From NCBI GenBank assembly GCA_035387745.1, contig DAOOON010000001.1, positions 31,952 through 63,951 of the forward strand: a DNA stretch of 32,000 bases, given 5' to 3'. The translations under genes were made by a program, and so were the position numbers. Under the pieces are notes generated by a model. That model had not been told where the DNA came from and made no database searches. It was given only the letters and a program-made list of their open reading frames with translations. Origin of the DNA: an archaeon. Lineage in GTDB: Archaea; Iainarchaeota; Iainarchaeia; Iainarchaeales; CSSED10-239. Positions within the stretch are counted from its first letter, which is position 1. Each line of letters opens with the position of its first letter. Below are positions 245 through 12,759 of this stretch, in pieces.

Positions 245-252
245 TTTATATA
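245..252 (+). promoter_or_regulatory. TATA-box-like element (tttatata) 22 nt upstream of the ATPase ATG, implying a leaderless or very short-leader mRNA
   Basis: tttatata was read directly at 245-252. Archaeal TATA boxes sit roughly 25 nt upstream of the transcription start. In a genome this AT-rich, such matches also arise by chance. Confidence 0.3.
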
Positions 253-274
253 GTTAACTAAACATACTATATTT

Positions 275-1534
275 ATGGATAAACAATATATAGAAAGAAT
301 AATACTTGATCAATCAGAAGATCTAAAAAAAATGGAACTTGGTTTTACAAGAAATAAACTCCAAGATATAGATAGCCACATAAAATCAAAAATAAATATT
401 GTAATAACTGGTGTTAGACGCTCTGGCAAATCAATATTATTATTACAGATAATGGATAAATACTATAAAGACAAGTTTTATTATCTAAGATTTGCGGACG
501 AAAGATTATCAGATATACAGATAGAAGATTATCAAAAAATATACGAAGTGTTTTTAGCAAATTTTAATAAAACAAATATTTTCTTTTTTGATGAAATACA
601 AGGAAAACCAAAATGGGACCAGTTTGTTAATAGATTATATGAAACCGGTAATAAATTTTATATAACTGGCTCTAACTCCGAGTTATTAAGTAAAGAGATA
701 TCAACTTATCTAACAGGAAGGCATCTAGATATAGAGTTATATCCTTTTTCGTTTAGAGAGTTTTTAGACTTTAAAAAAATAGATCTAGATTACAGGTATA
801 CAAAAAACCTAATAAAAATAGAAAAAGAAATTGTAAATTATTTAAAAATAGGCGGTTTTCCACAAGTAGTAGTAGAAAATAATACCTCTTTACTTGAAGA
901 GATATATGAGGACATAATAAACAAAGACGTTTTATTAAGATATAATATAAACGATGTTTCTGTTCTTAAAAAAACAGCAATATTTTTAATGTCAAACATA
1001 GCTAAAGAATTTTCATATAATTCCCTAAAAAAGATGTTTAATTTAGGTAATTCAAATACAATTCGAAACTATGTTTATTATTTGTCTAATGCCTATTTGT
1101 TATTTGAATTAAATAAATACGATTATTCTTTTAAAAAGCAAGAAAATTATTCAAAAAAGATATATTGTATAGATACTGGATTAATAAACAAAATGGCATT
1201 TTCTTTTTCTGAAAATCTTGGAAGACTATATGAAAATTGTGTTTTTATAGAGCTAAAAAGAAGAGGCAAAGATATATATTTTTGGAAAGATAAATCTAAT
1301 AGCGAGATTGATTTTTTAATGCTTGAAAAAAACAAGGTTGTTTCTTTAATACAAGTTTGTTATAATTTAAATGATCTTAAGACAAAGGAAAGAGAAGTTA
1401 ATGCTTTACTTTCTGGGCTAGATGAATTTAAGTTAAAGGAAGGGATAATAATAACAAAAGATTTAGACAAAGAAGAAAAGATAAGAAATAAGACCATTAA
1501 GTTTATTCCTTTATGGAAATGGTTATTAGAGTAA
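275..1534 (+). CDS. AAA+ superfamily ATPase, COG1373 / DUF4143-type
   Basis: 419-aa ORF with an ATG start. It has Walker A GVRRSGKS and a Walker B-like FFFDEIQ. The N-terminal P-loop domain followed by a long C-terminal region is the usual layout of COG1373 ATPases. The family assignment is from motif memory, not a search. Confidence 0.7.
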   Translation: MDKQYIERIILDQSEDLKKMELGFTRNKLQDIDSHIKSKINIVITGVRRSGKSILLLQIMDKYYKDKFYYLRFADERLSDIQIEDYQKIYEVFLANFNKTNIFFFDEIQGKPKWDQFVNRLYETGNKFYITGSNSELLSKEISTYLTGRHLDIELYPFSFREFLDFKKIDLDYRYTKNLIKIEKEIVNYLKIGGFPQVVVENNTSLLEEIYEDIINKDVLLRYNINDVSVLKKTAIFLMSNIAKEFSYNSLKKMFNLGNSNTIRNYVYYLSNAYLLFELNKYDYSFKKQENYSKKIYCIDTGLINKMAFSFSENLGRLYENCVFIELKRRGKDIYFWKDKSNSEIDFLMLEKNKVVSLIQVCYNLNDLKTKEREVNALLSGLDEFKLKEGIIITKDLDKEEKIRNKTIKFIPLWKWLLE

Positions 1535-1597
1535 TTTTAAAATAATAGTAATTAACATTTTAAACAAACAAAAAACAAACAACCGCCTGAAAAACCA

Positions 1598-1615
1598 ATA
1601 TATATATATATATAT
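1598..1615. repeat. (AT)9 dinucleotide microsatellite in the promoter region of the DGR target gene
   Basis: atatatatatatatatat was read directly. Its 3' end lies 53 nt upstream of the ATG at 1669, and a GGAGA Shine-Dalgarno-like motif sits at 1651-1655. It could double as the TATA element. Confidence 0.9.
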
Positions 1616-1668
1616 CTTTCATCTATTTATTTTATTAGTTAATTTAAATAGGAGATAAGTAGATAAAT

Positions 1669-2529
1669 ATGAAAAATCAAAAATTAAAAGCAATCACTCC
1701 AATTGTTACAACTATTCTTTTAGTAGTAGTTGCTGTAATTCTTGTAACAATAGTCTTAAACTGGGGCAGAGTTTTTACTACTAGTTCTTTAAGTAAAACC
1801 CAAGGCATAGAGTTAACAAAATCTGATGCAGTTTCTTTTGTTTATCCAACTCAGTTAAAAGATGGCATAATACAATTTAATTATTCTCCGCCTTCTTCTG
1901 AGTCTTTTGGTGATATCATAATTACAAGTTATAAAGTATTATCTGATTCTGGCGAGACTCCAGACACTAATCTTTCTTCAAATTACACTTTAAAGCAAGG
2001 TTCAAATCTAATAGATCTAACAGGTTTTTCTTCTTTAGGTCTAGACTCTTCTTCAAAAGTCACGCTTGTTTTACAAACAACTGACAACACCTATCTAGAC
2101 ATAAAAAACATAACAAATTATTATGCAGTGCCTGTGCTTTTACCATATGTTTTAACAAATTCAGGAGACAAATTATATATTCATCCAAGTGATTCTCCAA
2201 CAGCCTTAACTTGGGCAGACGCAGGCCCATATTGTGAAAATTTAGACTCTAACGGTTATGACGATTGGTATCTTCCAAGCATGTCACAATTAGCAGATAT
2301 TTGGCTAGCTTGCCCTGATCAAACAAAATCGAACATTTGTATGAATAATAATATAAACAAAGATAATCTTCCATACACAGAAACCTGGGTTGATTTTATA
2401 GCAGACTATTATTGGTCAAGTACGGAGTGTGGGGCGGACGGCGCTTACGATATCGCTATGAACTATGGGGGCATCGGCATTAACGGTAAGGCCAAGGGCC
2501 TCTACGTGCGTTGTGTTCGTGACCAGTAG
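1669..2529 (+). CDS. DGR target protein: archaeal pilin-type N-terminus plus S/T-rich middle plus C-terminal DUF1566 / C-type-lectin-fold-like domain carrying the VR
   Basis: 286-aa ORF. The N-terminus MKNQKLKAITPIVTTILLVVVAVILVTIVLNWG resembles the archaeal type IV pilin N-terminal domain (short basic stretch, [KR]A[IV][ST]P[IV][IV], then about 20 hydrophobic residues). The C-terminal LTWADAGPYCENLDSNGYDDWYLPSMSQLADIW ... YWSSTE ... YVRCVRDQ matches the DUF1566 pattern seen in many DGR targets. The VR occupies the last 34 codons before Q-stop. Confidence 0.85.
   Translation: MKNQKLKAITPIVTTILLVVVAVILVTIVLNWGRVFTTSSLSKTQGIELTKSDAVSFVYPTQLKDGIIQFNYSPPSSESFGDIIITSYKVLSDSGETPDTNLSSNYTLKQGSNLIDLTGFSSLGLDSSSKVTLVLQTTDNTYLDIKNITNYYAVPVLLPYVLTNSGDKLYIHPSDSPTALTWADAGPYCENLDSNGYDDWYLPSMSQLADIWLACPDQTKSNICMNNNINKDNLPYTETWVDFIADYYWSSTECGADGAYDIAMNYGGIGINGKAKGLYVRCVRDQ
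2422..2523 (+). repeat. DGR variable repeat (VR)
   Basis: 102 nt align without gaps to 3189-3290, with 79/102 identical. 21 of the 23 differences lie where the other copy has A. The 3' 21 nt (2502-2522, ctacgtgcgttgtgttcgtga) are identical to TR 3269-3289 and are the IMH-like candidate. The VR ends 3 nt before the stop codon of the target (TAG 2527-2529). Confidence 0.9.
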
Positions 2530-2572
2530 TAACCAGGGGTTTTTGACAAGCCGTGGGCTTGGCAAAAGCCAT

Positions 2573-2595
2573 CAAGACATCCAGCGGATGTCTTG
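2573..2595 (+). promoter_or_regulatory. Perfect 10-bp hairpin with a 3-nt AGC loop downstream of the VR
   Basis: caagacatcc-agc-ggatgtcttg was read directly, and the arms are exact reverse complements. It is GC-enriched relative to its surroundings. A weaker 6-bp hairpin (caagcc-gtg-ggcttg) lies at 2547-2561. Confidence 0.8.
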
Positions 2596-2611
2596 TTTGT
2601 GATTGTCAGGC

Positions 2612-2640
2612 AAAGTCACAACCCAGCGGGTTGTGACTTT
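2612..2640 (+). promoter_or_regulatory. Perfect 13-bp hairpin with a 3-nt AGC loop, the second of a pair sharing the apex CCAGCGG
   Basis: aaagtcacaaccc-agc-gggttgtgacttt was read directly, and the arms are exact reverse complements. It is followed by a T/A-rich tract before the avd ATG at 2674. Confidence 0.8.
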
Positions 2641-2673
2641 GATATGTTTTGAAAAAAAAATTTGTGAATAAAA

Positions 2674-3036
2674 ATGGTTAGTTACGAAAACCTTGGAGTT
2701 TACAAGTCTTCTTTTGATCTTTGTGTGTATTTTGAAAAGATTGTTAAAAATTTTAATAAGGGCAATAAGTTTACAATTGGCGCAGATTTAAAAAATAAAT
2801 CGCGAGAGATTGCAATGCAAGTGGTTAGAGCAAATATATCAAGTACAAAAATAAAAGAAATTCAAGAGCTAATAATTTTAATTGAAGAACAAAAATTGAT
2901 AGTAAGATTGTGTCAAGAAACAAACGGCTTTCCTAATAAAAATTCATACGGATATATCTCAAAATTATTAACAAACCTTACAACCCAAGCCAATAACTGG
3001 CTATTATGCTCGCAAAAGCGAGAACAAACAGAGTAA
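2674..3036 (+). CDS. avd: Accessory variability determinant (Avd)-like four-helix-bundle protein
   Basis: 120-aa ORF between the target and TR/RT, the canonical avd position. Its size, predicted all-helical character and pattern (LGVYKSSFDL...VKNFNKGNKFTIGADLKNKSREIAMQVVRAN...W near the C-terminus) resemble the Avd / 23S-rRNA-IVS-protein family (PF05635-like). The call is from memory of the family, not a search. Confidence 0.75.
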   Translation: MVSYENLGVYKSSFDLCVYFEKIVKNFNKGNKFTIGADLKNKSREIAMQVVRANISSTKIKEIQELIILIEEQKLIVRLCQETNGFPNKNSYGYISKLLTNLTTQANNWLLCSQKREQTE

Positions 3037-3188
3037 AACCCGGAGTTGTAAATGTGAATAAAAGCAGTTTTACAAGCGCGGTTATTCATGGTGATGAAAG
3101 ACACCTAAACGGTAGTAAGTATTTTAATTAAGCTCTACTTTTTCTAAAAGATGAACTTTTTTAATAAAAGATCTTTCACAAAGGATGC

Positions 3189-3290
3189 ACGGAGTATGGG
3201 GCGGACAACGCTTACAATATCAATATGAACAATGGAAACATCAACAACAACAATAAGACCAATAACAACTACGTGCGTTGTGTTCGTGAA
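3189..3290 (+). repeat. DGR template repeat (TR)
   Basis: This is the adenine-rich copy (41 A in 102 nt; 13 AAY codons in the VR-equivalent frame) of the VR. It lies immediately upstream of, and overlaps, the RT ORF. The boundaries are where homology to the VR decays, and 2 further matching nt are possible at the 3' end. Confidence 0.9.
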
Positions 3291-4463
3291 CACGAATTTA
3301 CTTTTCAAGAACTTCATAAAGCATATATGACTTGTAGAAAAAATAAAAGAAATACAATCAATGCTTTAAAGTTTGAAGTTGATCTGGAAAGTAATTTACA
3401 AGAGTTGGTGTTTTGTTTAAATAACAAAACCTATAAGCCAACTCGCTCTGTTTGTTTTTCTATAACCGACCCAAAGCCACGCGAGGTTTTTGCTGCTGAT
3501 TTTAAAGATAGGGTAGTTCATCATCTTCTTTATAACCGTCTAAACCCAATTTATGAAAAAATATTTATCTATGATAGCTATGCTTGTAGAAAAAACAAAG
3601 GCACTTTAAACTCAGTAAAAAGAGCACAAACCTTTACAAGAAAGATTACAAACAATTCAAAAGAAAAAGCCTATTATCTACAACTAGATATTCATAATTT
3701 TTTTATGAGTATTGATAAAGATATTTTGTTTGGGATTGTAAGCCGCAAGATAAAAGACACAAGTTGGCTCTGGCTTACAAAACAGATAATCTATTACGAC
3801 CCAACCGAGAAATACTTACAGAAAGGTTCAGATTGGAAACAATCTGGTGTTCCTAAACACAAAACCTTATTTAACACTAAAAAAAACAAGGGCTTACCAA
3901 TAGGGAACCTTACAAGCCAGTTCTTTGCAAATGTCTATCTTAATGAATTAGATCAATATATTAAACATAAAATGAAAGTAAAATATTACATAAGATATGT
4001 AGATGATTTTATTATCTTCTCAAAATCAAGAAAAGAACTATTATCTATTAAAAAAGAAATAGAAACCTTTCTAAAAGAAAAGCTATCTTTAGTTCTAAAG
4101 CCCCTAACCATTCTAAAACCCATTTCCTCAGGCATAAACTTTGTAGGCTATATCATAAAATCAAACTATCTTTTGCCAAGAAATAGAGTAGTTAATAATA
4201 TATATAAAAAAATAAACCTTTTTAAGAAAGACAGTATTTATTTAGAAAACAAAGCTCTTGTTTATGATTTCAAAAATTCGGTATATTTTATAAAATCTAT
4301 AAATAGCTATTTTGGATATCTTAAACCATCCAAGCACAAAAATCTCCTAAAGGATATAAAGACAAAAAACCGTTTTTTAAATATTTTATTTATTTTTGAA
4401 AATCATAAGATCAAAAATAAATACCAGACAAATTTTATAAATTTAAAAATTAAGGCCGTTTAA
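3225..4463 (+). CDS. DGR-type reverse transcriptase
   Basis: 412-aa ORF. It has DPKPREVFAADFKDRVVHHLLYN (RT motifs 1-2), LPIGNLTSQFFANVYLNELD (IGNLTSQ at 3900-3920, the SQ signature typical of DGR RTs) and the catalytic YVDD at 3996-4007. The start is uncertain: the only in-frame ATG upstream of the conserved FTFQELHKAY block is 3225, which lies inside the TR. GTG at 3273 is an alternative. Confidence 0.9.
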   Translation: MNNGNINNNNKTNNNYVRCVREHEFTFQELHKAYMTCRKNKRNTINALKFEVDLESNLQELVFCLNNKTYKPTRSVCFSITDPKPREVFAADFKDRVVHHLLYNRLNPIYEKIFIYDSYACRKNKGTLNSVKRAQTFTRKITNNSKEKAYYLQLDIHNFFMSIDKDILFGIVSRKIKDTSWLWLTKQIIYYDPTEKYLQKGSDWKQSGVPKHKTLFNTKKNKGLPIGNLTSQFFANVYLNELDQYIKHKMKVKYYIRYVDDFIIFSKSRKELLSIKKEIETFLKEKLSLVLKPLTILKPISSGINFVGYIIKSNYLLPRNRVVNNIYKKINLFKKDSIYLENKALVYDFKNSVYFIKSINSYFGYLKPSKHKNLLKDIKTKNRFLNILFIFENHKIKNKYQTNFINLKIKAV

Positions 4464-4485
4464 CAAGCAACGCATATTCTCGTTT

Positions 4486-4512
4486 AAGCTTAGCTTTATT
4501 AAAGCTAAGCTT
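4486..4512 (+). terminator. 13-bp palindromic hairpin followed by a T-rich tract downstream of the RT
   Basis: aagcttagcttta-t-taaagctaagctt was read directly and is followed by tttat. It starts 23 nt after the RT stop. Archaeal termination mainly uses T-tracts, so its function is inferred. Confidence 0.35.
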
Positions 4513-6011: not shown

Positions 6012-7898
6012 ATGGAAGACGAATTTAAAACCATAAAAGATTATATAGAAAAATTTCTAGCAAAGAAAAACATTAATGTGTCTAAAATTGATGCTGAAGG
6101 ACCAGAGATTGGCATCTACACAGATACTCCATTAATTTTCTTTGAAGAAAAAGCAATTATCGGCGAGCTTGCTGAGCAATTAAAAAAAAGAATAAACATT
6201 AGATCTGAAAAAAGTATTCTGATGGATCCAGCAGAAGCTTTAAAGATAATTAAAGAGATTGTCCCTGAAGATGCAGATGTCAAAAGCACCTTCTTTGATA
6301 CTTCTTTTAGCGAAGTGGTAATTGAAGCAATTAAACCAGGCGTTGTTATTGGTAAACAAGGCATGATCTCAAGAGAGATAATAAAAAGAACAGGTTGGAT
6401 ACCAAGAATAATAAGAGCTCCAACAGAGCAATCAGAGATTCTAAAAAGAGTAAGATTAACGCTATTAAAGAACAGCTCAGAAAGAAAGACTTTCTTAAAG
6501 TCAGTAGCTAATACAATCTATAGCCCGCCAGTAAGCAATAATGACTGGATAAGAGTAACTGCTCTTGGTGGTTTTAGAGAGGTAGGTAGAAGTTGTATTC
6601 TTCTAGAGACTCCTGACACAAAAATTCTTTTAGACTGTGGACTTAATGCTTCTGATAAAAACGAAGAAGCACCATACTTTGATGTTTTAAGATTTCCTTT
6701 AGATGAACTTGATGCAGTGATCATTGGCCACGCCCATGTTGATCATTGTGGTTTCTTGCCTTATCTTTTCAAAGCAGGCTATAACGGCCCAGTCTATTGT
6801 ACAGAGCCAACAAGGGATTTGATGGCATTACTTCAATTTGATCTGATTGATGTTGCAGTAAAAAGTGGAAGAGAACCACCATATCTTGAAGAGCATGTTA
6901 AAGAAGTAATCAAACACACAATAACAAGAGACTACAGAGAAGTAACAGACATTGCTCCAGGAATCAGATTAACTTTTCACGACGCGGCACACATTCTAGG
7001 TTCTGCTTCTGTTCACTTACATATAGGCGAAGGAAAACAAAATCTAGTATATACTGGCGATTTCAAGTTTGGCTTTACAAGGTTATTCAATAATATGGAT
7101 ATCAATTATCCAAGACTAGAATCAATGATAATGGAAAGCACATATGGTGGTAAAGAAGTTACACCATCAAGAATGCATTCCGAAACAAACCTTATTGACG
7201 TTATTAATGAGACTACAGAAAAAGGAGGGATAACTTTAATTCCAGTCTTCTCTGTAGGTAGAGCTCAAGAGGCAATGATTATTCTTGAGGAATACTATAG
7301 ACAAGGTAAATTAAAGGCCTCAAAGATTCTTGTTGACGGCATGACAAGACAGGCTTCTGCAATTCACACAGTTTATCCAGAGTATCTAAAGAAGAACATT
7401 AAGACAAGAGTTCTACAAAACAACTCTCCATTCCTTTCTGATATTTTTGTTACAGTTGATGATGCAAAAGAAGGCGAGGAATTAATAACTCCAGGAACAG
7501 TAATTCTAGCTTCATCTGGTATGCTAACTGGTGGCCCATCTTTAAGATATTTCCAGAGATTTGCAAGTGACCCAAATAACACAATGGTGTTTGTAGGTTA
7601 CCAGGCAAGAAATACTTTAGGTTACAAGATACAGAAAGGCTTAAAATCTATGCCTGTAGTTGAAGATGGAAAAAATAAAAACCTCGATATTAATATGAGA
7701 ATAGAGACTGTTGATTCTTTTAGTGGCCACTCTTACAGAGCAGAGCTTCTTAATTTCTTAAACATGTTAAAGCCAATGCCAAAAACCATTTTGATTAATC
7801 ACGGAGATTCTTGTCAAGAATTTGCAAACTATGTTGGCAGAAAATACAATGTTGATACAAAATCTATTCAGGATTTAGAAAGCATAAGGCTAAGGTAG
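6012..7898 (+). CDS. fttA: aCPSF1 / FttA: KH-domain beta-CASP metallo-beta-lactamase ribonuclease (archaeal transcription termination factor)
   Basis: 628-aa ORF. An N-terminal KH-like region (VVIGKQGMISREI) is followed by an MBL motif (HAHVDHCG) and a beta-CASP region. The length and architecture are typical of aCPSF1. Confidence 0.9.
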   Translation: MEDEFKTIKDYIEKFLAKKNINVSKIDAEGPEIGIYTDTPLIFFEEKAIIGELAEQLKKRINIRSEKSILMDPAEALKIIKEIVPEDADVKSTFFDTSFSEVVIEAIKPGVVIGKQGMISREIIKRTGWIPRIIRAPTEQSEILKRVRLTLLKNSSERKTFLKSVANTIYSPPVSNNDWIRVTALGGFREVGRSCILLETPDTKILLDCGLNASDKNEEAPYFDVLRFPLDELDAVIIGHAHVDHCGFLPYLFKAGYNGPVYCTEPTRDLMALLQFDLIDVAVKSGREPPYLEEHVKEVIKHTITRDYREVTDIAPGIRLTFHDAAHILGSASVHLHIGEGKQNLVYTGDFKFGFTRLFNNMDINYPRLESMIMESTYGGKEVTPSRMHSETNLIDVINETTEKGGITLIPVFSVGRAQEAMIILEEYYRQGKLKASKILVDGMTRQASAIHTVYPEYLKKNIKTRVLQNNSPFLSDIFVTVDDAKEGEELITPGTVILASSGMLTGGPSLRYFQRFASDPNNTMVFVGYQARNTLGYKIQKGLKSMPVVEDGKNKNLDINMRIETVDSFSGHSYRAELLNFLNMLKPMPKTILINHGDSCQEFANYVGRKYNVDTKSIQDLESIRLR

Positions 7899-12572: not shown

Positions 12573-12597
12573 AATTATTCTGTTTTTCTTTAAAAAA

Positions 12598-12671
12598 CGG
12601 GTTTGGGAGGATTTGAACCCCCGTCAGCAGGTCCGAAGCCAGCTGCACTATCCAGGCTATGCTACAAACCC
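12598..12671 (-). tRNA. tRNA-Arg (anticodon TCG), no encoded CCA
   Basis: The reverse complement reads GGGTTTGTAGCATAGCCTGGATAGTGCAGCTGGCTTCGGACCTGCTGACGGGGGTTCAAATCCTCCCAAACCCG. It has a 7-bp acceptor stem GGGTTTG/CAAACCC, a D-arm GCAT/GTGC with the GG loop, anticodon loop CTTCGGA, T-arm GGGGG-TTCAAAT-CCTCC and discriminator G. There is one T-T mismatch in the anticodon stem. It was folded by eye. Confidence 0.8.
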
Positions 12672-12759
12672 ATTTATAAAAATATTCTTTCTATAATATT
12701 TATAGTATAAGTAATACTTTAAAGTATTCGTTTTTTAAGTTATTAAGGAGTGTTAACAA

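What the first reader, a model, noticed from the sequence alone, without database searches (positions are those of the whole stretch)
1669..4463. Complete diversity-generating retroelement (target-avd-TR-RT) in an AT-rich, DPANN-like archaeal genome
Four co-oriented, tightly spaced parts lie in the canonical DGR order. (i) The target ORF 1669-2529 carries the VR in its last ~100 nt. (ii) A 120-aa helical Avd-like ORF lies at 2674-3036. (iii) The TR lies at 3189-3290. (iv) An RT ORF runs to 4463 with the DGR-type motif LPIGNLTSQFFANVYL, catalytic YVDD and the PKPREVFAADFKDRVVHH block. All ORFs are intact, so the element looks functional. DGRs as a class are known and have been reported in metagenomic DPANN/CPR genomes. 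No archaeal DGR has, to my knowledge, been reconstituted experimentally, and this locus has several atypical details listed as separate findings. It is the only obviously accessory, hypervariation-generating system in the window.
Basis: partly seen in the sequence, partly recalled or inferred. Interest (0 to 1): 0.9.

Follow-up and report, generated by a model that had tools for sequence, protein, structure and literature searches.

The report
Working mutator retroelement in tiny archaeon
This is a genuine, complete and apparently recently active diversity-generating retroelement that rewrites the tip of a pilin-like surface lectin in a DPANN-type archaeon; it is a good example of a class already known from such genomes, not a new kind of system.

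Summary
VR 2422-2523 and TR 3189-3290 align without gaps. Of 23 mismatches, 21 fall at TR adenines (Fisher P=1e-8).

- a target with an Lcl_C/DUF1566 C-terminal domain;
- a four-helix Avd (AF2 pLDDT 91; TM about 0.75-0.8 to Bordetella bAvd);
- an RT whose best solved relative is Bordetella bRT (1e-35, against 1e-16 for group II intron RTs).

Near-identical contigs from other assemblies carry almost the same TR but all have different VRs. Of 39 variable VR columns, 33 are at TR adenines. A relative also has a second, remote VR about 150 kb away that matches the same TR. The element has therefore been active in nature.

Details beyond the finding:
- The RT start codon lies inside the TR.
- Three hairpins follow the VR, two of them with a conserved CC-AGC-GG apex.
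- A 150-nt RNA domain supported by covariation lies between avd and the TR.
- The RT lacks the MutS_I tail that its closest homologues carry.
- The cassette sits in a roughly 4.3-kb island that a sister lineage lacks.

The host is archaeal and Diapherotrites-like. DGRs with DUF1566 targets are already well documented in DPANN/CPR genomes, so this is a new member of a known kind. Interest is modest.

The parts
1669..2529 (+). Target (variable-protein) gene, 286 aa. It has an N-terminal archaeal pilin/archaellin-like hydrophobic helix, a middle beta-sandwich and a C-terminal Lcl_C/DUF1566 (C-type-lectin-like) domain that carries the VR.
   Evidence: Pfam Lcl_C covers aa 177-284, E=1.3e-12. In the AF2 model (pLDDT 81) the C-terminal domain best matches the Legionella Lcl C-terminal domain 8q4e (E=5.8e-6, TMt 0.70). 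The N-terminal part matches archaeal pilins 6w8x, 6w8u and 8q30. The N-terminus matches TIGR02537 arch_flag_Nterm at E=0.0044, below the cutoff, and PDB flagellin 8fk7 at E=0.019. JGI labels homologues 'flagellin-like protein'.
2422..2523 (+). Variable repeat (VR). It encodes the last 34 codons of the target (TECGADGAYDIAMNYGGIGINGKAKGLYVRCVRD).
   Evidence: Ungapped 102-nt match to the TR with 23 mismatches, 21 at TR adenines. It is different in every related assembly.
2499..2529 (+). IMH-like 3' end of the VR (…CTACGTGCGTTGTGTTCGTGACCAGTAG). It is invariant and G+C-rich, and differs from the TR counterpart (GAACAC) only at its very end.
   Evidence: The T/C polymorphism at core position +18 (2519 in the VR, 3286 in the TR) disagrees between VR and TR in three assemblies. 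That base therefore lies outside the copied segment.
2538..2570 (+). Hairpin 1 downstream of the VR (imperfect stem of about 14 bp, GTG loop).
   Evidence: Folding 2502-2650 as DNA gives z=-7.8. A perfect 10-bp version follows the remote VR in L074.
2573..2595 (+). Hairpin 2 (10-bp stem, apex CC-AGC-GG).
   Evidence: It is identical after the remote VR in L074. L077 has compensatory stem changes (acat/atgt to atgt/acat).
2611..2641 (+). Hairpin 3 (14-bp stem, apex CC-AGC-GG, followed by a T-rich tract). It probably serves both as a DGR target-site cruciform and as the end of the target transcript.
   Evidence: L076 has compensatory changes, and L080 has an unrelated stem with the same apex. 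Hairpins 2 and 3 are the only hairpins in the 32-kb window with an AGC loop and a stem of at least 8 bp.
2674..3036 (+). avd (accessory variability determinant), 120 aa, four-helix bundle.
   Evidence: PHROG phrog_3206 'Avd protein of DGR' 3.5e-12. Pfam bAvd 1.3e-7 and NCBIfam DivGenRetAVD 7e-8, both below their curated cutoffs. AF2 pLDDT 91.5. Foldseek TMq is 0.84 to 2gsc and 0.74-0.79 to bAvd 4dwl/8ub7.
3037..3188 (+). Conserved, structured non-coding RNA domain between avd and the TR (inferred 5' part of the DGR RNA). Helices: 3046-3052/3069-3075, 3096-3101/3172-3177, 3103-3105/3111-3113 and 3124-3142/3146-3164. Segment 3079-3095 is predicted to pair with TR 3219-3235.
   Evidence: The sequence is conserved across cassettes with 50-75% RT identity. 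In a 6-sequence alignment, 96.4% of cells are paired, against 42-48% when partners are slid. Twenty pairs changed on both sides, against 6.9±1.7 in shuffles (0/500) and 0-3 when slid. No Rfam family matches.
3189..3290 (+). Template repeat (TR). It has 41 adenines, 8 AAC and 5 AAT codons, and lies in frame with, and partly inside, the RT ORF.
   Evidence: It is nearly invariant among eight related assemblies. The theoretical repertoire is about 3e23 DNA variants and 2e22 protein variants.
3278..3295 (+). TR-specific 3' hairpin (UUGUGUU-CGUG-AACACGA), formed by the IMH*-like end of the TR and the next 5 nt. The VR cannot form it because it has GACCAG. It is a candidate counterpart of the stem-loop or primer duplex that lies just downstream of the TR in Bordetella.
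   Evidence: It is present in all six aligned cassettes, but most pairs are invariant, so the support comes mainly from conservation.
3225..4463 (+). DGR reverse transcriptase, 412 aa. The start codon is inside the TR. There is no C-terminal MutS_I domain.
   Evidence: Pfam RVT_1 1.6e-22. PDB bRT 8ub7 1.4e-35. phrog_1423 1e-104. Alignment with homologues shows the in-frame TR and the missing roughly 100-aa MutS_I tail.

Best explanation
The locus is a chromosomal diversity-generating retroelement of the avd-TR-RT type, sitting next to its target gene.

Inferred mechanism. A transcript covers the structured leader (3037-3188), the TR and the start of the RT gene. It is bound by the RT-Avd complex and reverse-transcribed from near the 3' end of the TR. 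The RT copies C, G and U faithfully and misincorporates opposite A. The mutagenised cDNA then replaces the VR (2422 to about 2515) at the end of the target gene. Targeting is guided by the invariant G+C-rich IMH-like end and by the hairpins just downstream.

Consequence. Up to about 1e22 variants are possible in the ligand-binding face of a C-type-lectin-like (Lcl_C) domain. That domain is carried on a protein with an archaeal type-IV-pilin-like N-terminus. It is therefore most likely a surface- or pilus-displayed adhesin that this DPANN-type archaeon uses to bind hosts or substrates.

Shown here: the anatomy, the protein families and folds, the A-restricted TR/VR differences, the diversification of VRs among natural strains, the second remote VR in a relative, and the conserved hairpins and RNA helices.

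Inferred only: the RNA intermediate, the priming site, the role of the hairpins, the display of the target on the cell surface, and its ligand.
For: TR/VR pair: 21 of 23 mismatches at TR adenines, P about 1e-8. TR adenines are confined to codon positions 1 and 2 of AAC/AAT codons, and only one codon can mutate to a stop.

RT: closest to Bordetella bRT and to phage RT family phrog_1423.

Avd: profile matches and fold.

Target: Lcl_C domain and fold.

Natural activity:
- Contig L001 is 100% identical to the window over 12.7 kb except in and next to the VR and TR.
- Across seven VR copies, 33 of 39 variable columns are TR-A positions, while the TRs differ by only a few SNPs.
- Several assemblies break exactly at the VR.
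- In the genome of L002, a second target about 150 kb away has a VR with 19 of 21 mismatches at TR-A positions and the same hairpins.

cis elements: the hairpins are conserved with compensatory changes, and the upstream RNA domain shows covariation.

The same target-avd-TR-RT cassette occurs in other genomic contexts.
Against: - No reads were available, so heterogeneity within a single population was not shown.
- Three assemblies (P0129, P0131, P0132) share an identical VR at the protein level although P0132 differs elsewhere. Diversification is therefore not constant, or some assemblies are mosaics.
- Two of the 23 mismatches are not at A.
- The L005 VR has a 3-nt insertion relative to its TR, which simple retrohoming does not explain.
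- The RT lacks the MutS_I tail present in its closest homologues.
- The Avd and pilin-N-terminus profile hits fall below curated cutoffs.
- The RNA structure rests on six sequences, from which it was also derived.
Confidence: 0.93

Rival explanations
1. The cassette was once active but no longer homes: a fossil or currently inactive DGR. The VR differences among strains would then be old and spread by recombination.
For: - An identical VR protein sequence appears in three assemblies, one of which diverges elsewhere.
- There are clear mosaic or recombination patches around the VR and TR between L001 and the window.
- The RT has lost the MutS_I domain of its nearest relatives.
- A relative (L024) has lost hairpins-avd-TR-RT, and a sister lineage lacks the whole island.
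Against: - All ORFs and catalytic motifs are intact.
- The TR is conserved almost perfectly while every full VR differs.
- L001 and the window are otherwise identical over 12.7 kb yet differ at 21 VR positions, which implies very recent change.
- Contigs break at the VR.
- Diapherotrites-labelled RT homologues (P0093, P0108) also lack MutS_I.
Confidence: 0.06
2. The element is not a DGR. The RT would belong to a group II intron, a retron or a defence (DRT/Abi) system, and the 102-nt repeat would be an ordinary partial duplication of the gene's 3' end.
For: NCBIfam's best profile hit is group_II_RT_mat (109 bits, far below its cutoff of 300), and several DRT profiles hit the RT domain. The neighbouring ATPase matches a candidate defence family, PDC-S01.
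Against: - bRT scores twice as high as any group II or retron RT.
- No intron RNA or retron ncRNA was found by Rfam.
- There is no maturase/X or endonuclease domain.
- An A-restricted mismatch pattern at P about 1e-8 is not expected from a duplication.
- Avd is present.
- The ATPase is not linked to the cassette in other genomes.
Confidence: 0.01
3. The three hairpins after the VR are simply transcription terminators or mRNA-stability elements of the target gene, not DGR target-recognition elements.
For: Hairpins 2 and 3 match a terminator-like pattern (stem plus T-run). They lie directly after the stop codon.
Against: - The same hairpins follow both VRs served by one TR in the L002 genome.
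- Their CC-AGC-GG apex is conserved across divergent cassettes while the stems covary or are replaced.
- The deletion in L024 removes the hairpins together with avd-TR-RT.
- Hairpin/cruciform elements downstream of the VR are required for homing in Bordetella and are described for Nanoarchaeota DGRs (PMC4372165).
- The two roles are not exclusive.
Confidence: 0.15

Closest known systems
DGRs of DPANN archaea and CPR bacteria (Paul et al. 2017, cited in PMC5758913 and PMC6349945; the 'CPR set' of Wu et al. 2018; Nanoarchaeota DGRs of Paul et al. 2015, PMC4372165)
   Same: The host type is a small-genome archaeon. The cassette is chromosomal. The target is a C-terminal lectin-like VR protein of the DUF1566/Lcl_C category. 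Avd is present and hairpins lie downstream of the VR. Closest RT homologues with a source-given name are labelled Woesearchaeota, Diapherotrites, Omnitrophica and Thermodesulfovibrionales.
   Different: Nothing differs at the level of kind. Local particulars are three hairpins with an AGC trinucleotide loop (GRA loops were reported in Nanoarchaeota), a pilin-like N-terminus on the target, and an RT start inside the TR. I could not read Paul et al. 2017, so I cannot say which of these are already described.
Bordetella phage BPP-1 DGR (mtd-avd-TR-brt), the prototype (PMC3240598, PMC6182149, bioRxiv 10.1101/2023.10.23.563531)
   Same: The gene order is target-avd-TR-RT. The RT is homologous (E=1.4e-35) and the Avd fold is shared. 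Variation is restricted to adenines. The VR/TR ends are IMH-like, and there is a hairpin after the VR. Structured RNA flanking the TR is needed in Bordetella and is present here.
   Different: In Bordetella, a non-coding spacer of about 140 nt downstream of the TR supplies the primer (Sp A56), the Avd-binding stem-loop and the stop duplex. Here there is no spacer, because the RT ORF begins inside the TR, and the large conserved structured RNA lies upstream of the TR. The target is a cellular pilin-like protein with an Lcl_C domain, not the phage tail-fibre protein Mtd. There are three hairpins rather than one.
Legionella pneumophila DGR (LdtA target, category 'd' DUF1566 VRs, MSL accessory gene; PMC5758913)
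   Same: The VR lies in a DUF1566/Lcl_C-type domain ending in …YVRCVR. The target is predicted to be surface-exposed. The close RT homologues of this element carry a MutS_I-like module, comparable to the MutS-like (MSL) accessory genes and the three RT-MutS_I fusions noted by Wu et al.
   Different: The window's RT has no MutS_I domain, and no MSL gene lies in the cassette. The target is anchored by an archaeal pilin-like helix rather than a lipoprotein signal.
Bacteroides DGRs that diversify type V pilus adhesins (bioRxiv 10.1101/2024.11.15.621889)
   Same: Both involve a DGR diversifying the adhesive tip of a pilus-type surface protein.
   Different: The pilus system is different (bacterial type V, against an archaeal type-IV-pilin-like N-terminus), and the domain of life is different. 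Pilus incorporation is only inferred here.

Membership tests
Diversity-generating retroelement (DGR) | Reverse transcriptase of the DGR clade (palm YxDD, motif-4 [ILV]GxxxSQ; closer to bRT than to group II intron or retron RTs) | tested here: met
   YVDD and LPIGNLTSQ are present in the translation. The top solved-structure hit is bRT 8ub7 at 126.5 bits, against 64.3 bits or less for group II, retron and Drt3a RTs. phrog_1423 matches at 1e-104. No full phylogeny with reference clades was built.
Diversity-generating retroelement (DGR) | A TR/VR repeat pair whose differences are almost all at TR adenines | tested here: met
   102-nt ungapped pair with 21 of 23 mismatches at A. Binomial P=4.7e-7, Fisher P=1.2e-8.
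Diversity-generating retroelement (DGR) | VR at the 3' end of a target ORF that encodes a variation-tolerant (C-type-lectin-like) domain | tested here: met
   The VR forms the last 34 codons of ORF 1669-2529. Pfam Lcl_C 1.3e-12. The model matches the Lcl C-terminal domain 8q4e. The aligned homologues are hypervariable exactly there, on a conserved scaffold.
Diversity-generating retroelement (DGR) | Accessory protein (Avd or HRDC) next to the TR/RT | tested here: met
   PHROG 'Avd protein of DGR' 3.5e-12. Pfam bAvd at 32.5 bits and NCBIfam DivGenRetAVD at 32.7 bits are both below their curated cutoffs. The fold matches bAvd with TMq 0.74-0.79 and rmsd about 2 Å.
Diversity-generating retroelement (DGR) | IMH/IMH* ends and a hairpin/cruciform downstream of the VR | tested here: met
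   The 21-nt G+C-rich end is invariant and diverges between VR (GACCAG) and TR (GAACAC). Three hairpins follow, z=-7.8, conserved with compensatory changes and present after a remote VR. Their function in homing cannot be tested here.
Diversity-generating retroelement (DGR) | Evidence of ongoing A-directed diversification of the VR in natural populations | tested here: met
   Tested by cross-assembly comparison. The TR is nearly constant. Seven VR copies all differ, and 33 of 39 variable columns are at TR-A positions. L001 against the window is the cleanest case. Read-level heterogeneity within one sample was not testable.
Diversity-generating retroelement (DGR) | Adenine-mutagenic, cis-primed cDNA synthesis from TR RNA by RT-Avd | not testable with these tools
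   This needs biochemistry or cDNA sequencing. Only RNA structural elements consistent with it were found.
Archaeal type IV pilin / archaellin-like proteins (class III signal peptide) | N-terminal class III signal peptide with a prepilin-peptidase site, followed by a hydrophobic helix | tested here: inconclusive
   TIGR02537 arch_flag_Nterm scores 16.5 bits against a cutoff of 20. PDB flagellin 8fk7 matches the N-terminus at E=0.019. The AF2 helix spans residues 11-38, and Foldseek hits archaeal pilins with probability 1.0 but low TM. JGI labels homologues 'flagellin-like'. Neither the cleavage site nor pilus assembly was tested.
RT-MutS_I fusion / MSL-containing DGRs (Wu et al. 2018 architecture D and related) | A MutS domain I-like module fused to the RT or encoded in the cassette | tested here: not met
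   The closest homologues (P0004, P0008, P0027, P0092) have PF01624 at E=1e-9 to 2e-5 in a C-terminal extension of about 100 aa. The window RT ends before it, and only 188 nt follow before the next gene.

The most novel reading that the evidence does not exclude
In this DPANN/CPR-associated DGR clade the RNA machinery may be arranged differently from the Bordetella paradigm.

- The TR doubles as the 5' coding end of the RT gene, so there is no non-coding spacer downstream.
- A conserved, covariation-supported RNA domain of about 150 nt upstream of the TR pairs with the TR interior, including the RT start codon.
- A TR-only hairpin formed by the IMH*-like end (3278-3295) could supply the cis-primer or Avd-binding element.

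This arrangement would couple RT translation, template folding and priming in a new way.

The product would diversify the lectin tip of one or more archaeal type-IV-pilin-like proteins. That would make it a programmable attachment organelle for an episymbiotic archaeon.
Probability: 0.25. Interest if true: 0.55.

Novelty: new member of a known kind. Interest (0 to 1): 0.3.

Why it matters
DGRs are the only known prokaryotic systems that direct hypermutation to a chosen protein surface. They are unusually common in DPANN and CPR organisms, where they are thought to tune attachment to hosts.

This locus adds no new principle. It is, however, a compact and complete example with natural evidence of activity from many public assemblies. 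It also has a presence/absence polymorphism, and a relative has a second, remote target.

It would therefore be a reasonable candidate for the first biochemical reconstitution of an archaeal DGR. It would also suit a test of whether the RNA requirements worked out for the Bordetella phage hold when the TR is embedded in the RT gene.

The pilin-like architecture of the target gives a concrete, testable idea of what DPANN cells diversify.

Tried and rejected
- Remote VRs in the window. The 21-nt core with up to 3 mismatches is found only at the VR and the TR. The rest of the 75.6-kb source contig and the MAG could not be read.
- Collection scans with CGTGCGTTGTGTTCGYGA in genome contigs and metagenome contigs. 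Most hits were unrelated bacterial loci sharing the …VRCVR-coding motif. Only L024, L048 and L060 were related.
- Viral-contig scan for the conserved leader motif: no hits. The clade is therefore not represented in IMG/VR.
- Rfam at gathering and E-value thresholds: only tRNA-Arg and one chance miRNA-like hit on hairpin 3.
- Test for a spacer-like RNA hidden in the RT 5' coding region, using synonymous-codon conservation. Conservation is raised over roughly the first 150 codons, not specifically after the TR. The result is inconclusive.
- A long-range pairing of 3069-3076 with 3331-3338, proposed by RNAalifold and resembling the Bordetella stop duplex. It has several broken pairs, and the local hairpin 3046-3052/3069-3075 is better supported.
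- The idea that the 8 SNPs at 3293-3331 and the 17 at 2329-2421 between L001 and the window are DGR products. Rejected: they are not A-specific, and they match the L002-type haplotype, so they reflect recombination or mosaic assembly.
- Linkage of the AAA_14/DUF4143 ATPase to the DGR. Rejected: other cassettes have different neighbours.
- Paul et al. 2017 could not be opened, so the comparison with it rests on how other papers cite it.

Full report
**Observation**

- The VR (2422-2523) and the TR (3189-3290) align without gaps over 102 nt. There are 23 mismatches, and 21 are at positions where the TR has A (15 A>G, 3 A>C, 3 A>T). The TR has 41 A in 102 nt, so the pattern is far from chance (binomial P=4.7e-7, Fisher P=1.2e-8).
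- The 21-nt core CTACGTGCGTTGTGTTCGTGA occurs only at these two places in the window, with none expected by chance.
- TR adenines lie almost only in codon positions 1 and 2 (39 of 41), in 8 AAC and 5 AAT codons. Only one codon can mutate to a stop. The theoretical repertoire is about 3e23 DNA sequences and 2e22 protein sequences. This codon design is typical of DGR templates (established knowledge of DGRs).

**Proteins**

Among solved structures the best match is the Bordetella DGR RT (8ub7; 126.5 bits, E=1.4e-35). The best group II intron RT scores 64 bits, and retron, Cas-associated and Drt3a RTs score less. It hits the phage RT family phrog_1423 at 1e-104.
- *The 120-aa ORF (2674-3036).* It matches 'Avd protein of DGR' (phrog_3206, 3.5e-12). 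It also matches Pfam bAvd (1.3e-7) and NCBIfam DivGenRetAVD (7e-8), both below curated cutoffs. An AlphaFold model built from 16 homologues is confident (pLDDT 91.5). It superposes on the pentameric four-helix-bundle family: 2gsc at TMq 0.84, and Bordetella Avd 4dwl/8ub7 at TMq 0.74-0.79 with rmsd about 2 Å.
- *Target (1669-2529).* It has an Lcl_C/DUF1566 domain at aa 177-284 (1.3e-12). In the model (pLDDT 81) the C-terminal domain best matches the Legionella Lcl C-terminal domain (8q4e, E=5.8e-6). The long N-terminal helix and the following beta-sandwich hit archaeal pilins (6w8x, 6w8u, 8q30).
- *Target N-terminus (MKNQKLKAITPIVTTILLVVVAVILV…).* It resembles archaellin/type IV pilin N-termini at sub-threshold level (TIGR02537 E=0.0044; PDB flagellin 8fk7 E=0.019). 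JGI labels several homologues 'flagellin-like'.
- *Target family.* Across 26 homologues the scaffold YWSSTEYGA..AY.I.M..G.I....K....YVRCVRDQ is conserved and the intervening positions are hypervariable.

**Evidence that the element works in nature**

The window comes from an NCBI 'MAG TPA: archaeon' contig of 75.6 kb. I fetched eight related contigs from other assemblies.

- L001 is 100% identical to the window over 12.7 kb, with four exceptions: 21 differences inside the VR, one TR position (3248, C/T) and two small flanking patches.
- Across all relatives the TRs differ by only a few SNPs, while every VR is different.
- Mismatches of each VR to its own TR fall mostly at A: 21/23, 16/18, 18/19, 13/14 and 13/14.
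- Over seven VR copies, 33 of 39 variable columns are TR-A positions.
- The C/T polymorphism at TR 3248 accounts for one of the window's two non-A mismatches.
- Several assemblies break exactly at the VR or TR, as expected where a population is micro-heterogeneous.
- In the genome of L002 (429-kb contig), a paralogous target about 150 kb away has a second VR that matches the same TR, with 19 of 21 mismatches at A. The same hairpins follow it. This cassette type can therefore serve remote targets. The window's own genome may have one outside the 32 kb I could read.

**cis elements**

- *3' boundary.* The VR and TR share the invariant G+C-rich end and diverge only at GACCAG (VR) against GAACAC (TR).
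- *Copied segment.* The T/C polymorphism at core position +18 (3286 in the TR) disagrees between VR and TR in three assemblies. A3271 does vary in VRs. Information transfer therefore seems to stop between 3271 and 3286, which is IMH-like behaviour (inference).
- *Hairpins.* Three hairpins follow the VR (2538-2570, 2573-2595, 2611-2641). Folded as DNA, the segment gives z=-7.8. Hairpins 2 and 3 have a CC-AGC-GG apex that is conserved in divergent cassettes, while the stems show compensatory changes or are replaced. They are the only such hairpins in the window. A hairpin/cruciform after the VR is required for homing in Bordetella, and trinucleotide-loop hairpins are described in Nanoarchaeota DGRs (PMC4372165).
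- *Upstream RNA domain.* The 150 nt between avd and the TR are conserved in cassettes whose RTs are only 50-75% identical. On a six-sequence alignment, a structure of 57 pairs has 96.4% of cells paired, against 42-48% for slid partners. Twenty pairs changed on both sides, against 6.9±1.7 in shuffles (0/500) and 0-3 when slid.
- *Helices in that domain.* It includes a closing helix (3096-3101/3172-3177), a long hairpin (3124-3164) and a predicted pairing of 3079-3095 with TR 3219-3235.
- *TR 3' hairpin.* A hairpin at 3278-3295 can form in the TR but not in the VR.
- *No Rfam family matches*.
- *Comparison with Bordetella.* There, RNA both upstream and downstream of the TR is needed. The downstream non-coding spacer supplies the primer, an Avd-binding stem-loop and a stop duplex (bioRxiv 10.1101/2023.10.23.563531). 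Here there is no downstream spacer.

**Atypical details**

- The RT reading frame is open from 3168 and reads the TR in the VR's frame. The first start codon is ATG 3225, inside the TR. The alternative GTG 3273 is also inside the TR. The next ATG (3327) is not conserved among strains, and using it would remove N-terminal residues that align with bRT.
- All aligned homologues, including those labelled as bacterial, have the TR in frame with the RT. This is why many database 'RT' proteins carry a spurious Lcl_C hit.
- The closest homologues carry a C-terminal MutS_I-like domain of about 100 aa (PF01624, 1e-9 to 2e-5) that the window's RT lacks. Two Diapherotrites-labelled RTs (P0093, P0108) also lack it. 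RT-MutS_I fusions and MutS-like accessory genes are already reported (PMC5758913).

**Context**

- The surrounding genes are archaeal housekeeping genes: FKBP, proteasome beta, aCPSF1, diphthamide synthase, CCA-adding enzyme, aEF-1beta, RLI, PCNA, LonB, PheRS and aIF5A.
- Several belong to clusters of at least 90% identity with proteins that NCBI labels Candidatus Diapherotrites. This supports the description 'DPANN-like'.
- In a sister lineage seen in many samples, the helicase gene is followed directly by FKBP. The ATPase, target, avd, TR and RT are all absent. In the window, about 245-4500 is therefore a variable island.
- A short contig of another relative (L024) joins the VR end directly to the FKBP upstream region, without the hairpins, avd, TR or RT.
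- The same target-avd-TR-RT cassette lies in unrelated neighbourhoods in other genomes.

**Comparison and verdict**

Every defining feature of a DGR that can be tested in silico is met. Only the biochemistry is untested.

The kind is well known. DGRs with DUF1566-type targets are established in DPANN and CPR genomes (PMC5758913, PMC6349945, PMC8144416). Remote targets, hairpins, MutS-like modules and flanking RNA elements have all been described.

The pilin-like target, the TR embedded in the RT gene and the upstream RNA domain are interesting particulars. They could mark a mechanistic variant, but my evidence does not establish that. I also could not read the main DPANN DGR survey to check whether they are new.

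I rate this a new member of a known kind, with interest 0.3.

Noticed in passing
window 275-1534 (+): The AAA_14/DUF4143 ATPase just upstream of the target matches the PADLOC candidate defence family PDC-S01 at E=1.4e-114. It lies in the same roughly 4.3-kb island as the DGR. The sister lineage lacks the island but keeps the last 19 nt of this gene as a remnant. Other DGR cassettes of the clade do not have this neighbour.
   Followed up: partly
window ~245-4500, compared with L081-L090 (e.g. L081 6221-6651): The whole block (ATPase + target + avd + TR + RT) shows presence/absence polymorphism. In a sister lineage with aCPSF1 at least 90% identical, seen in many samples, the helicase gene is followed after 430 nt by FKBP.
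   Followed up: yes
L024 1542-1300 (- strand), corresponding to window 2502-2548 joined to ~4495: A GTDB-representative 'uncultured archaeon' contig has the VR 3' end and 26 nt after the stop codon joined directly to the FKBP upstream region. The hairpins, avd, TR and RT are missing. This is either a natural deletion of the diversifying machinery that leaves an orphan target, or an assembly artefact in a 1.5-kb contig that ends in the VR.
   Followed up: partly
L074 6001-6954 with VR core at 6927 (same 429-kb contig as L002, ~150 kb from the cassette): A second, remote target gene (P0170, 64% identical to the window's target). Its VR matches the L002 TR with 19 of 21 mismatches at A. It has the same downstream hairpins and the same promoter-region sequence as the cassette-linked target.
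   Followed up: yes
window 2329-2421 and 3293-3331, compared with L001: Apart from the VR and TR, the only differences between two contigs that are otherwise identical over 12.7 kb are two SNP patches: 17 SNPs upstream of the VR and 8 just downstream of the TR. They are not A-specific and match the L002-type haplotype. This suggests homologous recombination between strains around the DGR repeats, or mosaic consensus assembly.
   Followed up: partly
L005 ~3193-3297 (VR), compared with its TR at ~3965-4066: This strain's VR carries a 3-nt (one-codon) insertion relative to its TR, and the target is 287 aa. Simple length-preserving retrohoming does not produce this.
   Followed up: no
window 1608-1625: An (AT)n tract lies about 45-60 nt upstream of the target start codon, in a conserved promoter-like region. 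Its length varies among strains and paralogues, from about 8 to 12 units. The remote target and the L076 cassette also have it. It could be the TATA-box region, possibly with length-dependent expression.
   Followed up: partly
window 4340-4463, compared with homologues P0002-P0012: The RT ends about 100 aa earlier than its closest homologues. These carry a C-terminal MutS_I-like domain (PF01624). Only 188 nt separate the RT stop from the next gene, so the domain has been lost rather than frameshifted.
   Followed up: yes
RT homologues P0018-P0119: Many database RT proteins of this clade are annotated with an Lcl_C (PF07603) domain. The cause is that gene callers extend the RT ORF upstream through the in-frame TR. 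This annotation artefact could mislead domain-architecture surveys.
   Followed up: yes
window 12597-12672 (-): tRNA-Arg(TCG) is the only RNA gene detected in the window. It is not associated with the island.
   Followed up: no
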